32,000 nucleotides of DNA, from the NCBI GenBank assembly GCA_003507395.1, contig DNVW01000003.1:3947-35946 (forward strand). Reading direction: 5' to 3'. The translations under genes were made by a program, and so were the position numbers. Shown here in pieces: positions 8,545 to 17,508 of the stretch; the first letter of the stretch is position 1; the number at the start of each line of letters is the position of its first letter. The notes under the pieces are model-generated. The model made no database searches. It was not told the DNA's origin and worked only from the letters and a program-made list of their open reading frames with translations. Source of the stretch: Clostridiales bacterium. GTDB lineage: Bacteria > Bacillota > Clostridia > TANB77 > CAG-508.

Positions 8545-8931
8545 TTATAAAATATTTAATTTATAATAATTATTTTTGTAAAGATTCATTCTTTCCTCAT
8601 CATTTATATTACTTTTTACTTCATGATTTTCGTCTTCTAATTTAAATATTTTATTTAATTTTCTTAATAAAATTTCTTGTTTTGTATCTCTTATTAAGCA
8701 TGGAACTTTGTTATATCCTAGTGTTTTTGCTGCTAATAATCTTATTCCACCATCTAGAATATAGTACCCATTTTCTTTTTGAATAACTTCAAATGGTTTC
8801 TTAATTCCTTCCTTTTTTATTATCTCCATATATCTACAAACTTTTTCTAAATTTCTGCTACATATTGCGTTAGCTTTAATTCCTTTTATATCTTTTATTT
8901 GTATTTCTTTATATTCTTTATAAACTTTCAT
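8545..8931 (-). CDS. ParB N-terminal-domain (ParB/Srx-like) protein
   Basis: 128-aa ORF. YILDGGIRLLAAKTLG matches the ParB-box pattern (hhDGhhRhhAAhhLG). Confidence 0.7.
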   Translation of the reverse strand: MKVYKEYKEIQIKDIKGIKANAICSRNLEKVCRYMEIIKKEGIKKPFEVIQKENGYYILDGGIRLLAAKTLGYNKVPCLIRDTKQEILLRKLNKIFKLEDENHEVKSNINDEERMNLYKNNYYKLNIL

Positions 8932-9004
8932 ATTATCAATTCCTTTCTTTTTTCTATTTACTTTTTAAAATTTTTGTATTAAAATATAATTACAATCATT
9001 TAAG

Positions 9005-9841
9005 TTAGCATTTAGTTTGGTCGCTTGTGCTAGCTTTTTCTTTTATATTTTTTAGTGTTATTCCATAACACATTTGATACAATTTTGAGATAATTGCATC
9101 TACTAATTGTTCATCTTGACTTTGACTAAATCTTTCTATTAATCCCTGCTTATCAAATCTTGTTGTAATGATTATTGGTAATCTATTTTCGTTTCTATTT
9201 TCAATAATTGTATATAATTTTTCTAATGCCCAGTTACTAATTTTTTCCGTTCCCAGATCATCAATGATCATCATATCAACATTTGAATATAATTCTATTA
9301 ATTCATTTTCTGACTTTGTATTATCTCTAAAAGTTTCCTTTATCATGTCTAGTAAAGTTGTTAGTCTTCCCATTAATACAATCTTGTCATTTTCAATTAA
9401 TTTGTTAGCAATTGATGCTGCTAAATGTGTTTTTCCAAGTCCTGACTCGCCTGTTATTATCAGTCCTTTAGTTTGTACTTTTGTTATACATTTATTTGTA
9501 TAATCATTAGCAACTTTTACTGCTATTTCATTGCCTGAATTAATATTAAAATTTTCAAAGTTCAGATTTTGAAATTTTCTTTCATTATAGTTCTGTTTGT
9601 ATAGCTTGTTTATAACATCCCTAAAATGTTTTCTTTTCTGAATTTCATATTCTTGCTCATCTCTTCTTTTCCAATACTCTTGTGCTTTATTACAATCACA
9701 TCTTTCGTATTTAATTGCATCAGGAGAAATATTAGCATATAAATAATCAAGTCCTATTGGAGCTAATTCTTTGCCACAAAATTCACATTTTTTCAATTTA
9801 TTGTGTATAACTTCGCTACAATTTATATTGTCTAAAACCAT
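9005..9841 (-). CDS. DnaC/IstB-like AAA+ helicase-loader ATPase (element-borne)
   Basis: Walker A GESGLGKTH, Walker B MMIIDDLGTE, N-terminal Cys cluster (CEFCGK...CDC). Overlaps the upstream gene by 26 nt. Confidence 0.8.
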   Translation of the reverse strand: MVLDNINCSEVIHNKLKKCEFCGKELAPIGLDYLYANISPDAIKYERCDCNKAQEYWKRRDEQEYEIQKRKHFRDVINKLYKQNYNERKFQNLNFENFNINSGNEIAVKVANDYTNKCITKVQTKGLIITGESGLGKTHLAASIANKLIENDKIVLMGRLTTLLDMIKETFRDNTKSENELIELYSNVDMMIIDDLGTEKISNWALEKLYTIIENRNENRLPIIITTRFDKQGLIERFSQSQDEQLVDAIISKLYQMCYGITLKNIKEKASTSDQTKC

Positions 9842-10334
9842 TTTCGCTCTCCTCTCTTATATTTTCTTCTTTTTTATTTTCTATATCTTTTGTATTCTTT
9901 TCTTCTGCGTTACCTAACGTTTTGGTAACGTTACTTTTTTCATTTTCACTTTTATGCTTTTCACGAAATCTTCTTTGTCGTTCTCGACCTTGCATTTGAT
10001 ACTTTTCATATTTTTCAATACTTTGATACTTGTCCCAATTTTTTATCAGAAATGTTTCCCCTTCTTTTATTAACATTTCTAATTCTAGAAACTTTTTCAA
10101 AATCTTTTCAATTTTTTTATTAGATTTTCCCATAATCTTTGAAAAATTTTGAATTGTCATCGGATTATTCTCTCCTATTTCTAATCTTCCTTTATTATTA
10201 CATTCAACTGCTATCGCAATTAATTGAATCCACACTCTAAAATAAGTGTCTCCTTCAGGAAGTTTTAAAAGTATTTGAATTTTCCTGTTTGAAAATATAT
10301 TAGTTTCTGTTTTAAACCAAGGTAATTCATACAT
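9816..10334 (-). CDS. Phage/ICE replisome-organizer (DnaD-related) N-terminal domain protein
   Basis: 172-aa ORF. The N-terminus MYELPWFKTETNIFSNRKIQILL...GDTYFRVWIQLI is typical of replisome-organizer proteins. Sits immediately upstream of the DnaC-like gene. Confidence 0.65.
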   Translation of the reverse strand: MYELPWFKTETNIFSNRKIQILLKLPEGDTYFRVWIQLIAIAVECNNKGRLEIGENNPMTIQNFSKIMGKSNKKIEKILKKFLELEMLIKEGETFLIKNWDKYQSIEKYEKYQMQGRERQRRFREKHKSENEKSNVTKTLGNAEEKNTKDIENKKEENIREESENGFRQYKL

Positions 10335-10360
10335 ATCCTCCTTTCCTCACTTTCCATCAA

Positions 10361-10561
10361 TTAATATTTAATTGATTCTTTTTCTTTGCTACTTAGATAT
10401 TCATCTAATGCTTGAACTCTAAATAGAAATTTTCCACCAACTTTAGAGCATGGTATTTGTTTTCTTCTTACTAATTGATTAATTAACCAATAAGAAATTC
10501 CTAAATACTCTGCTGCTTCTTTCATTGTTAGTGTAGTTCTTTGAACTTTTTGTAATTCCAT
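10361..10561 (-). CDS. Excisionase-family helix-turn-helix DNA-binding protein
   Basis: 66 aa. LTMKEAAEYLGISYWLINQLVRRKQIPCSKVGGKFLF is the canonical Xis/MerR-type HTH pattern. Confidence 0.75.
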   Translation of the reverse strand: MELQKVQRTTLTMKEAAEYLGISYWLINQLVRRKQIPCSKVGGKFLFRVQALDEYLSSKEKESIKY

Positions 10562-10641
10562 ACATATCCCTCCTTTTCTTTAAGTTTATTCGGTTATAAG
10601 CCTTCGTTAACAAGTTTTATGTATTTTTTCTTGTTAACTAA

Positions 10642-10670
10642 TTGTATATTACCACAATTTATGGTAAAAT
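10642..10670 (+). promoter_or_regulatory. Promoter candidate for the 10749 gene, overlapped by TTGTTAAC operator-like motifs
   Basis: TTGTAT (10642-10647), 17 nt spacer, TGgTAAAAT extended -10 (10662-10670). Confidence 0.45.
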
Positions 10671-10748
10671 CCTATTGGATTAATTAAATTTTGTTATCAA
10701 AACGCAACTTTTGTGAATTTCGCAATTTGTTAACAAGGAGGATTTGAT

Positions 10749-12005
10749 ATGGAAAGAAAAAATGAAATTAGAATTTCTTTTGAAACAATTAATTTATCTC
10801 AAGTATTTATACACACTGCAGGTTCTTACATGAGTAAACCTATCAGCAAAAACAATAACAAATACTTAGCTAATTTAAGAACTGTTCCAGATGATGAAAG
10901 ATTTGGTTCATTAGTTTTAGAGCTTGAAAATGCAAGTTCAAAAGAAGAACAAGAAAGAATAATAAATGAATTAAAAGCAATTGTGGAAATAGATGAAACT
11001 GCAACTGCTGAACCTCTAACTTTTAATCATGACATTGAAAGTTTAAAAGGATATATTGTATTTGAACCAGAAACTGCAATAGAACACTATGATCTTAATC
11101 TATTAGATTTTATAAGTTATGATTTTGATGTATTTAATGATTACTTATTATTTTTTATTAATTTTTTCGATTATTTTATTGATACATTGGATAGCGAAGA
11201 TATAAATAGAATTGAACTAGATACTTTATATCCTGTATCAGAAATTGTCGAAATTGCAAAAAAATATTATAAAAAAGAAAAGGGTAATTTAATTTATCAT
11301 CAAAGTCTCTTTAAAAAATGTATCAACTTTATTTATTGTATTAATAATCCTTTTGAAAAAGATATTGAAGATTTGACAGCTAAGCAAAAATTCTTTTTGT
11401 ATAACTCTTTATATCAAGATACATTTAAGGAATTTTCGCACGATTTTCATACTACAGATTTATTAGAATATCAGTATAATAATTTTCCTATGAAAAAAGA
11501 AGATATTCAGTTAGAAGATGTATATACCTTAATTTCTACTATAAAAGATTTTGATCCTAGTGGTAGACATATAAGTAATTTACATCAGTTTGTAACTAAT
11601 AATATCTTTACTGCTCTTTATATTACTTTATTTTATGTAGTATCTATCAATAAATTACATATTAAAATTTGTGGAAATTGTAACAGATATTTTTTAACTC
11701 CTAAAAAAAATGTTACATATTGTGACAGAATAGCTGAAGATGCCTTAACTTGTAAAGATATTGGAAGTATTGAACAACAAAAAAGAAAATTAGAATCTAA
11801 ACCTGTATATAAAAAACATAGACGTATTCAACAAATAAAATGCGTGTATGCAGGACGATATAAAGACGAACCTTTCTATAAAAATGATTATGAAACATTT
11901 AACAAAATAGCTAATCAGTTTAAAGATGATATAAAAAAAGGAAAAGCTACTGAAGAAGAATTTGATAAATGGTTAGATACACAAGATAAAACAAGGCAGG
12001 ATTAA
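10749..12005 (+). CDS. Hypothetical protein with C-terminal Cys cluster (CGNCNRYF...YCDR...CKD)
   Basis: 418-aa ORF. AAGGAGG SD lies 7 nt before the ATG. Divergent from the Xis-like gene. No family confidently recognised. Confidence 0.65.
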   Translation: MERKNEIRISFETINLSQVFIHTAGSYMSKPISKNNNKYLANLRTVPDDERFGSLVLELENASSKEEQERIINELKAIVEIDETATAEPLTFNHDIESLKGYIVFEPETAIEHYDLNLLDFISYDFDVFNDYLLFFINFFDYFIDTLDSEDINRIELDTLYPVSEIVEIAKKYYKKEKGNLIYHQSLFKKCINFIYCINNPFEKDIEDLTAKQKFFLYNSLYQDTFKEFSHDFHTTDLLEYQYNNFPMKKEDIQLEDVYTLISTIKDFDPSGRHISNLHQFVTNNIFTALYITLFYVVSINKLHIKICGNCNRYFLTPKKNVTYCDRIAEDALTCKDIGSIEQQKRKLESKPVYKKHRRIQQIKCVYAGRYKDEPFYKNDYETFNKIANQFKDDIKKGKATEEEFDKWLDTQDKTRQD

Positions 12006-12015
12006 TTCCTGCCTT
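11993..12015. terminator. Bidirectional terminator between convergent genes
   Basis: Perfect 9-bp stem AAGGCAGGA (11993-12001) / TCCTGCCTT (12007-12015). The stop codon lies in the loop. A T-run follows. Confidence 0.55.
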
Positions 12016-12031
12016 TAATCATTTTTTTGTA

Positions 12032-12940
12032 TTATATAATAATATCTTCATCTCTTTTATAAATTGCTATCTTTCTAAAATTATCATCTTTATATTCGTA
12101 GGCTGCATCTATTGCACAACATATCTCGTATTTACTAATTGATTTTGGATTGTTTGTTTCAAATTCTTTTTCCGAATACACTCCTATTATTATATTAAAT
12201 TGTTTTAATATTTTTTTATATAAGTCTTCTCTAATATAAAAATATGTACTATCTGAATCAAATGGAGACTGTATTGTTGCTATTCCTGTATCATCATAAT
12301 ATATCCCTGAATAATCATATCTTAAATTTAATAATTTAATAATATCATATTTTAATAGCATATACGTTCTATTTTTATCCTCATTTGTTATTCCTATATT
12401 AGAACAATCATATTCGCTCTCTATATAGCATTCTTTCCATATCTCTTCAACATTTCTTTCTTCATCAGGTAACATTAATTCATCAACCCCTGTATTTATT
12501 TCATACAGATTATATCTATAATAGGTTGTTCCAGAGCTCATAGATACATTATTTAATTCTGATTTACCATAATTTGTTATATTGTTATTTTTTAATGTAT
12601 TCAATCTATAAAAGCATTTCTTTTCGTTTAATTTATTTTTTATCATTTCTGAAATATGAATAGGTATGAAAGTTTTACCATCAAATTCGATTTTTTTCAA
12701 ACAATCTAAAACATTTATATTATCATATGTCTGATTGAATTTTTCTTGTTCCCAATTGATTTTTGCTTCTTTAATTCTTTTAATATATAAATCATAGAAA
12801 TCATAAACCACTTGCGGTTGATTTTTATATTGTAAAGTATCTATATCAATATCTACAAAATCATAATAGTCCTGCCATGCATCCTTTTTCACTTGCAAAT
12901 TAGTCATACACTCTCCAAGTAACTCAAAAAAGCAATCCAT
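12032..12940 (-). CDS. Unknown 302-aa ORF: either a separate partner (probable start M12 at 12907) or the displaced C-terminus of the STAND protein
   Basis: The ORF overlaps the upstream gene by 37 nt. An ATGA stop/start overlap lies at 12904-12907. An A6 run (12926-12931) inside the overlap would fuse the frames with a 1-nt change. No catalytic motif recognised. Confidence 0.65.
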   Translation of the reverse strand: MDCFFELLGECMTNLQVKKDAWQDYYDFVDIDIDTLQYKNQPQVVYDFYDLYIKRIKEAKINWEQEKFNQTYDNINVLDCLKKIEFDGKTFIPIHISEMIKNKLNEKKCFYRLNTLKNNNITNYGKSELNNVSMSSGTTYYRYNLYEINTGVDELMLPDEERNVEEIWKECYIESEYDCSNIGITNEDKNRTYMLLKYDIIKLLNLRYDYSGIYYDDTGIATIQSPFDSDSTYFYIREDLYKKILKQFNIIIGVYSEKEFETNNPKSISKYEICCAIDAAYEYKDDNFRKIAIYKRDEDIII

Positions 12941-15720
12941 TGATATTTTTTTCCAATTCTTTCAATCCTATGTTCATGTCTATCATAGCTATATCTATTT
13001 TTATCATAATTCTCAATTTTTTTGTTGTATCCCAAATCAAACATCTTCTTTAATATTATTGCCATATATAATTCTTCTTGTATTTCTTTATTTTTGCATT
13101 TTTCTATATTAGTATTAAGATTATTTAGCTTTTCTTTTTTTCTTTTTCCTAAAGAATTATTAAATAAAGTTTCATATTTATTAGTATTATTTATAGATAT
13201 TTCTAATATCTTGTTTATATCATAGTTTACTTCTTCATACATCTTCCTTTTATTTATTTCTATTTGTTTAGAAGTAATTATCATTTTCTCATATAAATAT
13301 TTTTGTCTTGTAGTTAAGCTAGATATTAATTCTTGTTTTTCTTTTTTTAATATATCATAAACTTTTTTGTCGTAATAAATAAAATCTTTCATTCTAGACT
13401 CAACTATATATCTTGCAAAATCACCCATATGAGACATAGAAAACATTACATTGTTATACTTTCCTGTTTTATTTAGTAATTTATAAAAATCTCTTTTTGA
13501 AATATATTCTATCGTCAATGTTGGTTTTTTACATATATTATTAAAATTCTTTTTAGTCTTTATGATTTTTCTATCATAGCATAAATGATTTAATAACATT
13601 AGATAATGTCTTATTCTTGTATTAGAGATTTGTTTTGAGCAAAATATTTGTCTTATTTTATGATAATGTATTTTTAATAAATCATTATCCTTATTTAATA
13701 TATGTGCACTATGTATGCAACATAAAAATCTTTCTACAATGTATTGATCATCTACACTAGATATTATATCAATTAGTTCATCTATCAACGTTAAATCTGA
13801 TACAAAAAATGCTGTAAGTGCTTTACTAGACTTATCTCTTATTTCTCTATCAGAAACACTTAGCATCCAAAAAAATAGTTGCACAAAATTTTGCTTTAAA
13901 TTGTAATTAAATTTACTAAGGTCTGCATAGTATGGGATCTTCGAAATACTTATTATTCTTGTCCTTATTATATCAATATTTAAAAAATCCTTTAAGTACA
14001 TATCTCTTATATTATTTTTTAATTTTCTCATTAAATTTGAGAAATAATACACTGCATTTAAGGGGTGATATGTTACTAGCATACTAGATGAAAGAGTTAT
14101 CATCCAATCAAAGAAATCTTCTTCATTTAGATTTGCTGACTTAATATAACCTAAAATTTCTTTTTGCCTAGCTTTTATATTTTCTCCAAAAGATTCTTTC
14201 GATCTATATCTCAATCCTAGTAAATAGCTATAATTAAAACTATATAGTATTGTATCATCATAAAATTCAAATAATTCTTTTCCTGTGCGTATAGGAATAT
14301 GCTCTACCAACGTTTCTACCAAAGACATATTATCCTCTAACATTTTTATAGTAGTTTTTTTATTTAAAAAATCGTTCCATGATTCACTTTCATCTTTTGT
14401 ATTTAATAGATATCTAGCTATTAAATAGTCTGATTGCCTTTGAAATGAAAACTTATATGTAATTCTTCTTTGATTATTTCCTATGTACATATTATTAGCT
14501 TCTATAAGTTTGTGTACTACTAGCTTTTCTATTATTTTGGCTGAACTAATATTCAAATTTAAATTGTCAACAATTGATACAAATTCTTTTACGAACAAGT
14601 ATGTTCGACACTGTTTTACCATTAATTGAGCTATTTCTTTAGCAATTTTATTCCAAAAAATTTTCCCCGTAATTACACTTCCATCATTACAAACCACTCC
14701 TAATTCGTTAATAATATTTTGACTTATTCTTGTAAAATACCTTTCGAAAATAAAAGTTGCAGTATTATATCCCCTTTGTCCTTTAGTTTGTCCTTTTTCT
14801 GAATATTCTTCGCAAAAGATTTTTAATATTAGTGGATTACTAGCATAATTACTTTCTAAGATTTCTCCTATTTCAATGTTATAATATTCACTAAATTTAA
14901 CAGCAGCTTCAACAGCATCGGAAAATCCATATAAAGTTATATTAGGATAATTGTTTAGAATTGACAAAGTTTGTTGCTCTACATCACCATTTCTATATGA
15001 AATTATTAACTTAATATTTTTTTCTTTTATATTATTAATTAAATATTCTATTATGTCTTTTTGATTTTGACGTGCCTCGTTAATTGCATCAAAAATAATA
15101 ATTCCAGTTTCATTATTTTGTTCAGCAACTTTAGCTATTTCTTCAAACAAATCTCCTATTTTCATTTTTTGTTCAATATACTTTATATATTCTTCAAATT
15201 TATATATAGCCTGCCCATAAAAAATAATAGTAGGAACATCATTATTAATTAAATCATTAGCAATTTTAGTCAATAAATGAGTTTTTCCAGTTCCTCCATC
15301 TCCATTTACCACTATAACCTGACTTTTTATATATTCTTTTATTTTATATAAATTATTATTTACTCGTGATAATTCATATAGTCTATTATTACTTTCATTA
15401 TCATTTTCTTCAGATTTATTATTTCTTAAAAAGTCTATAGCCTTTTCATTTTCTTTTACCAAATCATCTACGTTGCTATTATCTTTATAAAAGCATATGT
15501 TAAGTTTTGATTCTAATTCTTCGATATCTTTATAACCACATCTTTCTATATATTTATATATACTTTCTAATTTTTCTTTAATTTTATCTTTAAAGTCTTT
15601 CGTAAGCAAAGAATCTACCAATATTTTATTTTCGGGAGATTCTACATTTATTTCTGTTACTAATTTTTCTCGTATTTCTTTATTACTTTCTTCTATAAAT
15701 GATTTTAATTTTTCTATCAA
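12904..15720 (-). CDS. STAND/NACHT-like P-loop NTPase, large helical C-terminal region (candidate defence sensor)
   Basis: 938-aa ORF. Walker A GDGGTGKT (nt 15280-15303, verified). Walker B-like GIIIFDAINE (nt 15076-15102). About 135 aa of helical N-terminus and about 700 aa downstream with no recognised enzymatic motif. Confidence 0.8.
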   Translation of the reverse strand: MIEKLKSFIEESNKEIREKLVTEINVESPENKILVDSLLTKDFKDKIKEKLESIYKYIERCGYKDIEELESKLNICFYKDNSNVDDLVKENEKAIDFLRNNKSEENDNESNNRLYELSRVNNNLYKIKEYIKSQVIVVNGDGGTGKTHLLTKIANDLINNDVPTIIFYGQAIYKFEEYIKYIEQKMKIGDLFEEIAKVAEQNNETGIIIFDAINEARQNQKDIIEYLINNIKEKNIKLIISYRNGDVEQQTLSILNNYPNITLYGFSDAVEAAVKFSEYYNIEIGEILESNYASNPLILKIFCEEYSEKGQTKGQRGYNTATFIFERYFTRISQNIINELGVVCNDGSVITGKIFWNKIAKEIAQLMVKQCRTYLFVKEFVSIVDNLNLNISSAKIIEKLVVHKLIEANNMYIGNNQRRITYKFSFQRQSDYLIARYLLNTKDESESWNDFLNKKTTIKMLEDNMSLVETLVEHIPIRTGKELFEFYDDTILYSFNYSYLLGLRYRSKESFGENIKARQKEILGYIKSANLNEEDFFDWMITLSSSMLVTYHPLNAVYYFSNLMRKLKNNIRDMYLKDFLNIDIIRTRIISISKIPYYADLSKFNYNLKQNFVQLFFWMLSVSDREIRDKSSKALTAFFVSDLTLIDELIDIISSVDDQYIVERFLCCIHSAHILNKDNDLLKIHYHKIRQIFCSKQISNTRIRHYLMLLNHLCYDRKIIKTKKNFNNICKKPTLTIEYISKRDFYKLLNKTGKYNNVMFSMSHMGDFARYIVESRMKDFIYYDKKVYDILKKEKQELISSLTTRQKYLYEKMIITSKQIEINKRKMYEEVNYDINKILEISINNTNKYETLFNNSLGKRKKEKLNNLNTNIEKCKNKEIQEELYMAIILKKMFDLGYNKKIENYDKNRYSYDRHEHRIERIGKKYQWIAFLSYLESV

Positions 15721-15879
15721 ATTATATAACCTCCTTAATAAATATTGCCACTTTTAAACATAAGTTTATAAATTTTTTAAAATTTTATGTTTTTCTTCAT
15801 AAATTACTCATATATTATACCTTATTCTTTTTATTTAATAAATAATTTTAAGAATATTTGATTATTTTAATGACATGTA

Positions 15880-15908
15880 TTGCAATTTGTTATCATTTAT
15901 TATATAAT
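15880..15908 (+). promoter_or_regulatory. Integrase promoter candidate with operator-like motif in the spacer
   Basis: TTGCAA (15880-15885), 17 nt spacer, TATAAT (15903-15908). The spacer contains CAATTTGTTATCA, related to the motif at 10722-10736. Confidence 0.5.
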
Positions 15909-15977
15909 TCATATTGTTAACAGATATATTAACTCTCTCCCACCCATAGGTATGCCTGAAAGGAGGTGGAAAAGGTA

Positions 15978-17174
15978 ATGGCTGGGAGTATTGAAAAAAG
16001 AGGAAAGAATAGTTACAGATTAGTTTGCCTTGCTGGATATGACTTGCAAGGACGACCTATTAAGAAAACCAAAACAATACACGGAACAAAAAAGGATGCT
16101 GAAATAGAACTTGCTAAATTTGTTGCTGATGTTCAAAACGGTCTTGTAATTGAGGGTAAATCTCTTAAATTTTCTGAATTTACTGACATATGGAAAAGAG
16201 ATTATGGTTCAAAAGAACTTGCACCTTCAACTTACAAAAGATATTGTAGAATGTTAGAAACAAGAATTTTACCATACTTTGGACATTTCTATATTAACAA
16301 AATTAAACCTACTGATATCATGCAATTCTATGATTTACTTAGTAGAGATACACAATTAGTTAGAAAGAAAAGCAACAATGGAAAGAAAACTCTAAAACCC
16401 TTATCTGGTAAGACTATATTAGAACATCACAGATTACTTCGTGCAATGCTACACAAAGCTATATATTGGCAATTGATTGTATCTAACCCTGCAGAACGTG
16501 TTCAACCACCAAAAGCAATGAAACCAAAAAGACGATACTATGATGATGAGCAATGTAAAGTATTATTAGAAAATTTGACAACACTTGGCGAAGATCAAAC
16601 CAAATACAAAGTTGCAATCATTCTAACAGTATTTACTGGTGTAAGACTTGGTGAGCTAATGGGATTAGAATGGCAAGATGTTGATTTTAAAACTGGAATT
16701 ATAAGTATAAATCGTTCAAGTCAATATTTAGCAGACAAAGGTGTATTTACAAAAACACCTAAAACAGAAAGCTCTATCAGAGAAGTAGCAATTCCAGATT
16801 TCGTGATTTCTCTTCTTAGGCAATATAAGTTATGGTATGAAGAACAAAAATCCATTTATGGCGAATTATGGACTGATTCTAATAGGTTATTTGTACAAGC
16901 TGATGGCAAACCTATGCACCCTTCAACAATAAGCAAATGGTTTGTAAAATATGTTGCACAAATAGGACTACCTGTAATTAACTTTCACGGATTAAGACAC
17001 ACAAATGCTACACTTTTAATATCACAAAACATTGATGTAGCAGTTGTAGCAGCAAGACTAGGACATGCACAAATTACAACAACATTTAACTTTTACGTGC
17101 ATCCTATTATTTCTCACAATAGACAAGCAGGAAGTGTTTTAGAAAACTTGCTACTACCACAAAAATTAGTCTAA
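15978..17174 (+). CDS. Tyrosine site-specific integrase (phage-integrase family)
   Basis: The track start 15966 is a GTG inside the AGGAGGTGG SD. The ATG at 15978 gives MAGSIEKRGKNSYRL (typical arm-binding N-terminus). Catalytic residues: R in GVRLGEL, HGLRHT, LGHAQ...FNFYVH (Y). Confidence 0.9.
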   Translation: MAGSIEKRGKNSYRLVCLAGYDLQGRPIKKTKTIHGTKKDAEIELAKFVADVQNGLVIEGKSLKFSEFTDIWKRDYGSKELAPSTYKRYCRMLETRILPYFGHFYINKIKPTDIMQFYDLLSRDTQLVRKKSNNGKKTLKPLSGKTILEHHRLLRAMLHKAIYWQLIVSNPAERVQPPKAMKPKRRYYDDEQCKVLLENLTTLGEDQTKYKVAIILTVFTGVRLGELMGLEWQDVDFKTGIISINRSSQYLADKGVFTKTPKTESSIREVAIPDFVISLLRQYKLWYEEQKSIYGELWTDSNRLFVQADGKPMHPSTISKWFVKYVAQIGLPVINFHGLRHTNATLLISQNIDVAVVAARLGHAQITTTFNFYVHPIISHNRQAGSVLENLLLPQKLV

Positions 17175-17233
17175 AATCTTTTTTCAGATTTCACTAAGGC
17201 AAATAAAAGCCATTAAACTTTTCACGAAAAAAA

Positions 17234-17279
17234 GTAAAAGACTACTAAATATTATTTTAGGTTTCCCATAGTCTTTTAC
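17234..17279 (+). terminator. Hairpin downstream of the integrase
   Basis: Perfect 11-bp arms GTAAAAGACTA (17234-17244) / TAGTCTTTTAC (17269-17279) with a 24-nt loop. The long loop makes terminator function uncertain. Confidence 0.35.
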
Positions 17280-17319
17280 TGAATATTTATTAGAAATATA
17301 AACATTTTATGAGGATTTC

Positions 17320-17338
17320 TTCCCCAACTTTTCCCCAA
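17320..17338 (+). repeat. Two direct TTCCCCAA repeats, 11-bp phasing, at the integrase-proximal element end
   Basis: TTCCCCAA at 17320-17327 and 17331-17338. The same octamer in inverted orientation (TTGGGGAA) lies at 8367-8374 in the relaxase leader. Confidence 0.4.
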
Positions 17339-17432
17339 TTCTACATAAAAAGGCTATTTTTAGTCATTATTGTTAACTAATTGGAGAACATAAAAAATCG
17401 CTACAATCCTTAAGACTGTAACGATATAAGTT

Positions 17433-17508
<76 letters not shown>

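What the first reader, a model, noticed from the sequence alone, without database searches (positions are those of the whole stretch)
12032..15720. STAND-type NTPase joined to a 302-aa ORF across a T_TTT_TTG slippery/homopolymer junction: candidate novel defence system
- The 938-aa protein has Walker A GDGGTGKT (15280-15303) and Walker B-like IIIFDAINE (15076-15102). This is the hhhhD-x-x-[DN]-E arrangement of STAND/NACHT-like NTPases used by Avs and bNACHT antiviral sensors.
- Its N-terminal 135 aa are helical with no recognisable effector domain. I recognise no nuclease, protease, TIR or SIR2 motif anywhere in the protein.
- It ends ...ERIGKKYQWIAFLSYLESV*. The 302-aa ORF overlaps it by 37 nt in the -1 frame.
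- Inside the overlap the zero frame reads GCT TTT TTG (plus-strand A6 at 12926-12931). This is an X_XXY_YYZ heptamer, and a -1 slip or one extra T reads straight through as ...KKYQWIAFFELLGECMTNLQVKK... to give about 1229 aa.
- The alternative is a two-gene operon coupled by an ATGA overlap at 12904-12907.
- Under either model the effector function must reside in unannotated sequence, which makes this the strongest candidate for an undescribed system in the window.
Basis: partly seen in the sequence, partly recalled or inferred. Interest (0 to 1): 0.75.

Follow-up and report, generated by a model that had tools for sequence, protein, structure and literature searches.

The report
Frameshifted Avs2 antiviral gene
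The two overlapping ORFs are one known phage-sensing immune gene (Avs2 family) broken by loss of a single T in a run of seven, so this is a recently damaged copy of a known system, not a new defence system or a programmed frameshift.

Summary
The 938-aa ORF is an Avs2 (AVAST type 2) antiviral STAND NTPase: PADLOC E=1e-93, and solved EcAvs2 9o4e E=3.5e-65. The 302-aa ORF is not a separate gene or a hidden effector. It is the β-rich C-terminal sensor domain of the same protein, shown by profile-profile alignment to the last residues and by Foldseek hits only to SeAvs3-terminase. At least 17 homologues (36-93% identity) are single ORFs of 1208-1242 aa. The closest intact allele differs by 12 substitutions and has GCT TTT TTT GAG (T7) where the window has T6. 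The T6 allele is 100% identical in assemblies of separate sequencing runs, so it looks like a real, recent one-base deletion. It falls at the TPR/C-terminal-domain boundary, inside the family's most conserved motif (ERIGKKYQWIA). Programmed frameshifting is unsupported: homologues are in frame, there is no downstream RNA structure (z=-0.77), and the ORF holds 15 such heptamers. The gene sits next to the integrase of a mobilisable element at tRNA-Met. The only unusual feature is that this Clostridia clade, like many Avs2 relatives, lacks an N-terminal effector domain.

The parts
12032..15720 (-). Whole Avs2-family gene. It encodes 1229 aa when the T-run is T7, and is interrupted here by a 1-nt deletion.
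   Evidence: hhalign against 28 canonical Avs2 proteins gives probability 100, E=1.6e-91, columns 115-1228 vs 311-1495/1523.
12904..15720 (-). ORF1, 938 aa. It contains the helical extension (residues 1-~135), the STAND NTPase (Walker A at 15280-15303, Walker B at 15076-15102) and the TPR sensor region. The last 7 residues (LSYLESV) are out-of-frame.
   Evidence: PADLOC Avs2 PDLC02164 E=1.2e-93. NCBIfam NF041813 Avs2 scores 261.8 bits. PDB 9o4e EcAvs2 E=3.5e-65. Weak Pfam NPHP3_N/NACHT hits. The exact protein is NCBI HBJ11804.1.
12926..12931 (-). T6 homopolymer (A6 on the + strand). This is the frameshift site, and it is T7 in the closest intact alleles.
   Evidence: It is the only indel in 3.69 kb against L001 (93.8% nt identity, T7) and against L098 (12 substitutions, T7). 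L005 and L006 from other sequencing runs carry the same T6 and are 100% identical.
12032..12940 (-). ORF2, 302 aa from the first ATG, or 291 aa from the ATGA-coupled ATG at 12907. It is the Avs2 C-terminal (β-rich) sensor domain, now in the -1 frame.
   Evidence: Avs2 HMM alignments extend across the junction when the frames are joined, and all six PADLOC Avs2 scores rise. hhalign reaches the C-terminus with shared motifs. The AF2 model has pLDDT 77 and is β-rich. Foldseek's only significant PDB hits are 8dgc_A/B, SeAvs3-terminase, E=1.3e-4. The 291-aa form is NCBI HBJ11803.1.
15966..17174 (+). Tyrosine integrase of the carrying element, adjacent to and divergent from the Avs2 gene.
   Evidence: Pfam Phage_integrase 3.5e-26 and Phage_int_SAM_3. 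The same neighbour is found in L001 and L098-L099.
17433..17508 (-). tRNA-Met, the probable integration site. Backbone homology to sister elements ends inside it, at 17477.
   Evidence: ARAGORN. blastn of L098/L099 against the window.
6860..12005 (.). Element backbone shared with sister elements: relaxase 6943-8337, ParB_N 8545-8931, IstB/DnaA-like ATPase 9005-9841, replisome organiser 9816-10334, Xis/HTH_17 10361-10561, DUF6076 10749-12005.
   Evidence: Pfam. Synteny and 97-98% nt identity with L098-L100 over window 6860-17477.

Best explanation
The region is a single gene for an Avs2-family (AVAST type 2) antiviral STAND NTPase. It is carried as cargo next to the integrase of an integrative mobilisable element inserted at tRNA-Met in an uncultured, very AT-rich Clostridia bacterium. 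In its intact form (1229 aa) the protein consists of a helical extension, a STAND ATPase, a TPR domain and a β-rich C-terminal sensor. By analogy with EcAvs2 and Avs2-trypsin (inferred, not shown here), the helical extension, TPR and C-terminal sensor would clasp the ATPase domain of a phage large terminase, and ATP-dependent tetramerisation would follow. In this window one T of a T7 tract has been lost (T7 to T6). Translation therefore terminates 7 codons later, and the C-terminal sensor (291-302 aa) is left in the -1 frame. The break lies at the TPR/C-terminal-domain boundary, inside the conserved ERIGKKYQWIA[FY][FHY]E motif. The deletion appears to be a real, recent allele of one clone. Most likely it inactivates or cripples the sensor (inferred). 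This clade has no N-terminal effector domain and no conserved partner gene, so how even the intact protein stops phage is not known.
For: Family assignment:
- PADLOC Avs2 E=1.2e-93.
- NCBIfam Avs2 is the top hit.
- A profile of the clade hits PDB 9o4e EcAvs2 at E=3.5e-65.
- hhalign against canonical Avs2 gives probability 100, E=1.6e-91, through to the C-terminus.

One ORF is the normal state:
- 17 homologues at 36-93% identity are 1208-1242 aa with 100% coverage.
- Many >=98%-identical 1229-aa cluster members exist.

Single-base deletion:
- It is the only indel against L001 (T7) and against L098 (T7; 12 substitutions).
- L002-L004 read GCA TTT TTT in frame.

Homology crosses the junction:
- Alignment ends move from residue ~932-936 to ~945-951, and all six PADLOC Avs2 bit scores rise.
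- phmmer to 9o4e aligns ERIGKKYQWIAFFELLGECMTN with ERIGKKYQWIAYYEYMARLADN.

ORF2 is the C-terminal sensor:
- The model is β-rich with pLDDT 77.
- Foldseek's only significant hits are SeAvs3-terminase chains.
- The EcAvs2 paper says Avs2 and Avs3 share this sensor and that terminase and bridging-ATP contacts (W1266, E1362, E1364, E1444, E1462) lie in it (PMC13601566).
- The CTD of Avs2-trypsin is 291 aa (10.64898/2026.08.25.746987).

Real allele:
- L005 (ERR636349) and L006 (SRR28454821) are 100% identical to the window over 5.5 kb, including the T6 run, and 8 contigs carry it.

Defence context:
- Neighbours of homologues include AbiEi/AbiEii, HsdR, HipA, Cas9, Septu-like PDC-M62 and GajA.
Against: - The NCBIfam Avs2 score (261.8 bits) is far below the equivalog cut-off of 1000, and identity to canonical Avs2 is only 20-28%, so this is a divergent branch.
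- No N-terminal effector is present, which departs from the tripartite Avs architecture.
- Terminase sensing and defence are inferred from homology only.
- Loss of function is not shown. The downstream piece has an SD-like GGAGAG and an ATGA-coupled start, and it shows no substitutions against the intact allele over 900 nt, so a two-chain protein cannot be excluded.
- I could not inspect raw reads.
Confidence: 0.88

Rival explanations
1. Programmed -1 ribosomal frameshifting (or transcriptional slippage) at T_TTT_TTG makes the 1229-aa protein from the T6 allele as a regulated product.
For: The heptamer fits X_XXY_YYZ in the zero frame, and a -1 slip restores the ancestral frame with at most one changed residue.
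Against: All intact homologues are in frame and need no slip, so the frameshift requirement is not conserved. The 106 nt that start just upstream of the heptamer (12935) and run downstream to 12830 fold no better than shuffles (z=-0.77; 48 of 200 shuffles fold as well). There are 15 such in-frame heptamers in this ORF alone. By general knowledge, a run of 6 is short for efficient RNA polymerase slippage.
Confidence: 0.03
2. The split is functional. ORF1 (helical extension, NTPase, TPR) and the translationally coupled 291-aa C-terminal sensor are made separately and reassemble into a working two-chain Avs2.
For: The break is at a domain boundary (TPR|CTD) and only 7 residues are altered. An ATGA overlap and an SD-like GGAGAG precede the internal Met. 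There are no substitutions in the 900 nt downstream against 12 upstream relative to L098 (Poisson P~0.02).
Against: The split state is seen in only one clonal sequence, and every other lineage keeps one ORF. The break disrupts the most conserved motif of the family. The ATG and the GGAGAG are ordinary coding sequence (G-E-C-M) present in intact alleles as well.
Confidence: 0.08
3. The T tract is a phase-variable (contingency) switch that turns a costly abortive-infection gene off and on.
For: T6 and T7 alleles exist in near-identical backgrounds (99.65% nt identity). Other cluster members look disrupted at other A/T-rich positions (P0098, P0094, P0100).
Against: A 7-nt tract is short for classical phase variation (general knowledge). 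The gene has 21 comparable runs. Only one T6 clone was seen, and no mixed T6/T7 population could be examined. The other truncations may be contig-end artefacts and were not checked at the DNA level.
Confidence: 0.07
4. The missing T is a sequencing or assembly error, and the organism really carries the intact gene.
For: Homopolymers are error-prone, and the record is a metagenome-assembled genome.
Against: Assemblies from different runs (ERR636349, SRR28454821), plus ENA/NCBI contigs up to 130 kb, give the identical T6 sequence.
Confidence: 0.04

Closest known systems
EcAvs2 (E. coli AVAST type 2; PDB 9o4e; Evans et al. 2026, PMC13601566)
   Same: They share the helical extension, STAND ATPase, TPR and β-rich C-terminal sensor. 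Homology covers residues ~48-945 by sequence profile and reaches the C-terminus by profile-profile alignment against canonical Avs2 proteins. The motifs GxxGxGKTHLL, DAINE and ERIGKKYQWIA are shared, and R914 aligns with the bridging-ATP residue R1132.
   Different: EcAvs2 has a ~240-residue N-terminal effector that has no counterpart here. Identity is only about 20-25%. The window copy is frameshifted. Terminase sensing has not been tested for this clade.
Avs2-trypsin-MBL of Vibrio cholerae (bioRxiv 10.64898/2026.08.25.746987) and KpAvs2 (Mrr nuclease; PMC11564622)
   Same: They have the same Avs2 core, with a TPR domain followed by a ~291-aa CTD.
   Different: Those proteins carry trypsin or Mrr nuclease effectors and have partner genes (MBL; Avap1/Avap2). 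This clade has neither an effector nor a conserved neighbour.
Short-N-terminus Avs2 relatives (e.g. P0020-P0038, 1317-1389 aa)
   Same: They also begin essentially at the conserved RYTPxLNV motif, with Walker A at residues 169-196 and no effector domain. The NCBIfam Avs2 model (1317 positions) starts at the same point.
   Different: Identity is only 25-28%. They have slightly longer N- and C-termini and come from different taxa.
SeAvs3 (PDB 8dgc)
   Same: The C-terminal sensor fold is shared, and 8dgc chains are the only significant Foldseek hits for ORF2.
   Different: SeAvs3 has a different TPR architecture and a Cap4 nuclease effector (PMC13601566).

Membership tests
Avs2 (AVAST type 2) | Central STAND NTPase with Walker A and Walker B (hhhhDAINE) | tested here: met
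   GDGGTGKT and IIIFDAINE are present. G140-T147 (apart from the variable G143/T144) and D211/A212/N214/E215 are invariant in the clade, and the same DAINE residues are invariant in canonical Avs2.
Avs2 (AVAST type 2) | Avs2-specific sensor (TPR plus C-terminal sensor domain) homologous over its length | tested here: met
   PADLOC E=1.2e-93. PDB 9o4e E=3.5e-65. hhalign probability 100, columns 115-1228 vs 311-1495. Foldseek matches ORF2 to SeAvs3.
Avs2 (AVAST type 2) | NCBIfam NF041813 equivalog score of at least 1000 bits | tested here: not met
   261.8 bits for ORF1. This is a divergent branch and not an 'equivalog' by NCBI's threshold.
Avs2 (AVAST type 2) | N-terminal effector domain (tripartite architecture) | tested here: not met
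   Walker A is at residue 140, against 320-420 in canonical members. The N-terminus is five helices with no Foldseek hit below E=0.9. There is no hydrophobic segment. Many database Avs2 relatives lack the domain too.
Avs2 (AVAST type 2) | Single uninterrupted ORF | tested here: not met
   The gene is split at T6 in the window and intact in homologues.
Avs2 (AVAST type 2) | Activation by phage large terminase, and phage defence | not testable with these tools
   This needs co-expression toxicity and plaque assays. It is inferred only from homology to EcAvs2, KpAvs2 and Avs2-trypsin.
Avs2 (AVAST type 2) | Defence-island or mobile-element context | tested here: met
   In the window the gene is next to an integrase on an IME that also carries an R-M gene. 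Homologues lie next to AbiE, HsdR, HipA, Cas9, PDC-M62 or GajA. One homologue lies next to RRF.
Programmed -1 ribosomal frameshift | The frameshift requirement and slippery site are conserved among homologues | tested here: not met
   All full-length homologues are in frame (T7 or GCA-T6).
Programmed -1 ribosomal frameshift | Downstream stimulatory RNA structure | tested here: not met
   MFE -17.5 kcal/mol, z=-0.77, 48 of 200 shuffles fold as well.
Programmed -1 ribosomal frameshift | X_XXY_YYZ heptamer in the zero frame | tested here: met
   T_TTT_TTG is present, but it is 1 of 15 such heptamers in the ORF, so it is uninformative.
Phase-variable contingency locus | Tract-length polymorphism within one clone or population | tested here: inconclusive
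   T6 and T7 alleles are seen in backgrounds that differ by 12 substitutions. Read-level data are not available.
Integrative mobilisable element | Integrase, excisionase and relaxase without a conjugation apparatus, inserted at a tRNA | tested here: met
   Integrase, Xis/HTH_17, relaxase, ParB and replication genes are present. tRNA-Met is at 17433-17508. Backbone homology ends at 17477. The far end and the att repeat were not found in the window.

The most novel reading that the evidence does not exclude
The intact form of this Clostridia clade, and the many other Avs2 relatives that start directly at the RYTPxLNV motif, may be conserved single-gene immune sensors with no effector domain and no conserved partner. 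If so, they would have to stop phage by a non-canonical route. One route is stoichiometric sequestration of the large terminase ATPase inside the sensor pocket. Another is toxicity arising from the tetramerised helical extension and NTPase itself. A lesser variant is that the T6 allele is a naturally occurring two-chain (split) Avs2 that still works.
Probability: 0.25. Interest if true: 0.55.

Novelty: new member of a known kind. Interest (0 to 1): 0.2.

Why it matters
For genome annotation, HBJ11804.1 and HBJ11803.1 ('hypothetical proteins') should be merged and labelled as a frameshifted Avs2-family gene. This also removes a false 'novel defence system / recoding' lead. Biologically the allele is a small example of how a costly abortive-infection sensor on a mobile element is knocked out by homopolymer slippage in an AT-rich genome. 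It sits on an element whose restriction-modification gene is also frameshifted. The one open question it touches is how Avs2 proteins without an effector domain confer immunity. This clade's intact alleles (e.g. P0108) would be compact test cases for that question.

Tried and rejected
- **ORF2 as a hidden effector:** rejected. Pfam, PADLOC and NCBIfam give nothing on ORF2 alone. Profile-profile alignment and Foldseek show it is the Avs2/Avs3 C-terminal sensor.
- **An effector in the N-terminal 135 aa:** none found. The region is all-helical, the best Foldseek hit is E=0.9, and there is no hydrophobic segment.
- **A trans-encoded effector or conserved partner:** rejected. DUF6076 is adjacent only on the IME backbone. 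Elsewhere the neighbours are unrelated independent systems. The 1514-aa neighbour in L002 is PDC-M54A-like and not a canonical Avs2.
- **Programmed frameshift:** rejected.
- **Evolved two-gene operon:** rejected as the ancestral state.
- **att repeats of the tRNA within the window:** none found.
- **Literature on effector-less Avs:** Gao et al. 2022 (PMC10028730) is not held, and a phrase search found nothing relevant.
- **Reference genomes:** the scan found only one moderately close relative (L012, 37%). Everything else was canonical Avs2, so it did not help with the T-run question.
Full report
**Observation**

- The 938-aa ORF lies at 12904..15720 (-) with a TTG start. The 302-aa ORF lies at 12032..12940 (-). 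They overlap by 37 nt.
- On the coding strand the junction reads ...CAA TGG ATT GCT TTT TTG AGT TAC TTG GAG AGT GTA TGA. The T6 run is at 12926-12931 and the ATGA overlap at 12904-12907.
- Inserting one T opens a 1229-aa frame.
- The heptamer is not remarkable. The window is 24.7% GC and has 91 T6 and 46 A6 runs. The 938-aa ORF alone contains 15 in-frame X_XXY_YYZ heptamers, and the gene has 21 A/T runs of 6 or more.

**Family assignment**

- PADLOC's six Avs2 models hit the 938-aa protein. The best is PDLC02164 at E=1.2e-93, covering profile positions 240-1165 of 1504.
- NCBIfam's Avs2 model NF041813 is the top hit at 261.8 bits, covering profile 29-995 of 1317. This is far below the equivalog cut-off of 1000.
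- Pfam gives only weak NPHP3_N, NACHT and nSTAND hits.
- A profile of the clade hits the solved EcAvs2 structure 9o4e at E=3.5e-65.
- So this is a divergent member of a described, structurally characterised antiviral family.

**The two ORFs are one gene**

- ORF2 alone hits nothing. When the frames are joined, all six Avs2 alignments extend through the junction, from residue ~932-936 to ~945-951, and every score rises, for example from 313 to 323.8 bits.
- A search with the repaired 1229-aa sequence found nine proteins at 81-93% identity that are 1229-1230 aa long. One at 59% is 1222 aa, and seven at 36-44% are 1208-1242 aa. All cover 100% of the query.
- At the DNA level, L001 (93.8% identical) reads GCT TTT TTT GAG, and the missing T is the only indel in 3.69 kb. 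L002-L004 read GCA TTT TTT GAG in frame.
- The closest intact allele (P0108, loci L098-L100) differs from the window gene by 12 substitutions plus this one T.

**What ORF2 is**

- The published Avs2 architecture is effector, helical extension, STAND ATPase, TPR, then a β-rich C-terminal sensor that Avs2 shares with Avs3. Terminase contacts and bridging-ATP contacts lie in that last domain (PMC13601566).
- In Avs2-trypsin the TPR spans 701-1170 and the CTD spans 1171-1461, which is 291 aa (10.64898/2026.08.25.746987).
- hhalign of the clade alignment (A1) against 28 canonical Avs2 proteins (A3) gives probability 100 and E=1.6e-91 over columns 115-1228 vs 311-1495/1523. Shared motifs run to the end: ERIGKKYQWIA, DIDPS/IDIDT, E..(Y/F)DCS and GEK/SEK.
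- An AlphaFold2 model of ORF2 (pLDDT 77, pTM 0.78) is β-rich. Its only significant PDB matches are the two SeAvs3-terminase chains 8dgc_A/B (E=1.3e-4, probability 1.0).
- ORF2 is therefore the severed C-terminal sensor and not an effector.
- The break lies at the TPR/CTD boundary, inside the family's most conserved motif. The repaired protein reads ERIGKKYQWIAFFELLG and EcAvs2 reads ERIGKKYQWIAYYEYMA.

**Real allele or error?**

- The exact 938-aa and 291-aa proteins are NCBI HBJ11804.1 and HBJ11803.1, from a 'Clostridiales bacterium' MAG.
- Eight contigs carry the 938-aa protein. L005 (ERR636349) and L006 (SRR28454821) are 100% identical to the window over ~5.5 kb, including the T6 run.
- This argues for a genuine allele of one clone. 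It is recent: all 12 substitutions against L098 lie upstream of the junction, and the 900 nt downstream are identical (Poisson P~0.02), so there is no pseudogene decay.
- I could not examine reads, so phase variation is neither shown nor excluded.

**Programmed frameshift?**

This is unsupported, for three reasons.
- The need to shift frame is not conserved.
- The 106 nt spanning and following the heptamer (12935 to 12830) fold no better than shuffled sequence (z=-0.77).
- Heptamers of this type are abundant in the ORF.

**The missing effector**

- Walker A sits at residue 140 in this clade. It sits at 169-196 in the nearest outgroup (1317-1389-aa proteins that begin at the RYTPxLNV motif) and at 320-420 in canonical Avs2.
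- The N-terminal 135 residues are five helices (pLDDT 80). They have no structural match (best E=0.9) and no hydrophobic segment. They align to the region between the effector and the NTPase in canonical Avs2.
- No neighbouring gene is conserved. The neighbours seen are integrase/DUF6076, AbiEi/AbiEii, HsdR/HipA/Cas9, a Septu-like PDC-M62 pair, RRF and GajA.
- The clade is conserved as an intact ORF down to 35% identity, so it is presumably functional. Its output mechanism is unknown. This is the only non-routine aspect, and many database Avs2 relatives share it.

**Context**

- The gene lies between a tyrosine integrase (15966-17174) and DUF6076 (10749-12005). The element also carries Xis/HTH_17, a replisome organiser, an IstB/DnaA-like ATPase, ParB_N and a MobA/VirD2 relaxase.
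- tRNA-Met lies at 17433-17508.
- Sister elements (L098-L100) share 97-98% identity from window 17477, which is inside the tRNA, to 6860. Beyond that point the cargo differs: theirs is an MmeI-like methylase, an S subunit and GajA.

**Verdict**

This is a recently frameshifted allele of an effector-domain-less Avs2-family sensor on a mobilisable element. It is a new member of a known kind and is of low interest beyond annotation. The one real loose end is how effector-less Avs2 proteins work.

Noticed in passing
window 4085-6767 (-), junction ~5646-5652: A second frameshifted defence gene sits on the same element. ORFs of 387 aa and 533 aa overlap by 83 nt and split an N6-adenine methylase motif I (DPFC|GVGGF) at 'TGCCGGA'. 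Deleting one C gives an 893-aa frame with NPPY and a specificity domain, and type I MTase and specificity models align continuously across the repair site. The same split, with an identical junction, occurs in contigs from many samples (63 index blocks; L092-L097). It is therefore fixed in a widely spread element, or possibly tolerated or recoded.
   Followed up: partly
window 6860-17477; tRNA-Met 17433-17508: This is an integrative mobilisable element inserted at tRNA-Met. Its backbone is conserved with L098-L100, and the cargo slot downstream of the relaxase is variable. The window carries the split R-M gene, DUF6119 and two unknown ORFs there, while L098 carries an MmeI-like MTase, an S subunit and Gabija GajA. 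The left end and att repeat were not found within the window.
   Followed up: partly
window 264-4020 (-): Three cargo ORFs lie in the variable slot: 436 aa (264-1574), 220 aa (1589-2251) and a DUF6119 protein of 571 aa (2305-4020). None has a PADLOC hit. Given their position among defence genes, they are candidates for uncharacterised defence functions.
   Followed up: no
cluster members P0098, P0094, P0100, P0012, P0115: Other members at >=90% identity diverge from the 1229-aa frame at different points: after residue ~794 at an A-rich run, after 927, after 891 and after 482. This suggests repeated independent disruption of this Avs2 in natural populations, or else contig-end or chimera artefacts.
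   Followed up: no
window 12032-12931 vs L098: All 12 substitutions between the window gene and the closest intact allele lie upstream of the frameshift, and none lies in the 900 nt downstream (expected ~3.9, P~0.02). Possible causes are a recombination mosaic, chance, or continued constraint on the detached sensor.
   Followed up: partly
proteins P0020-P0038 (homologues, not in the window): A sizeable group of Avs2 relatives (1317-1389 aa) starts right at the conserved RYTPxLNV motif with no effector domain. The NCBIfam Avs2 model has the same length (1317) as one of them. I found no paper addressing how such effector-less Avs2 proteins act.
   Followed up: partly
window 10749-12005 (+): A DUF6076 protein (418 aa) is convergent with the Avs2 gene and conserved in that position in all sister elements (L001, L005, L098-L100). 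It is absent next to more distant Avs2 homologues. It is probably a backbone gene of the element, and its function is unknown.
   Followed up: partly
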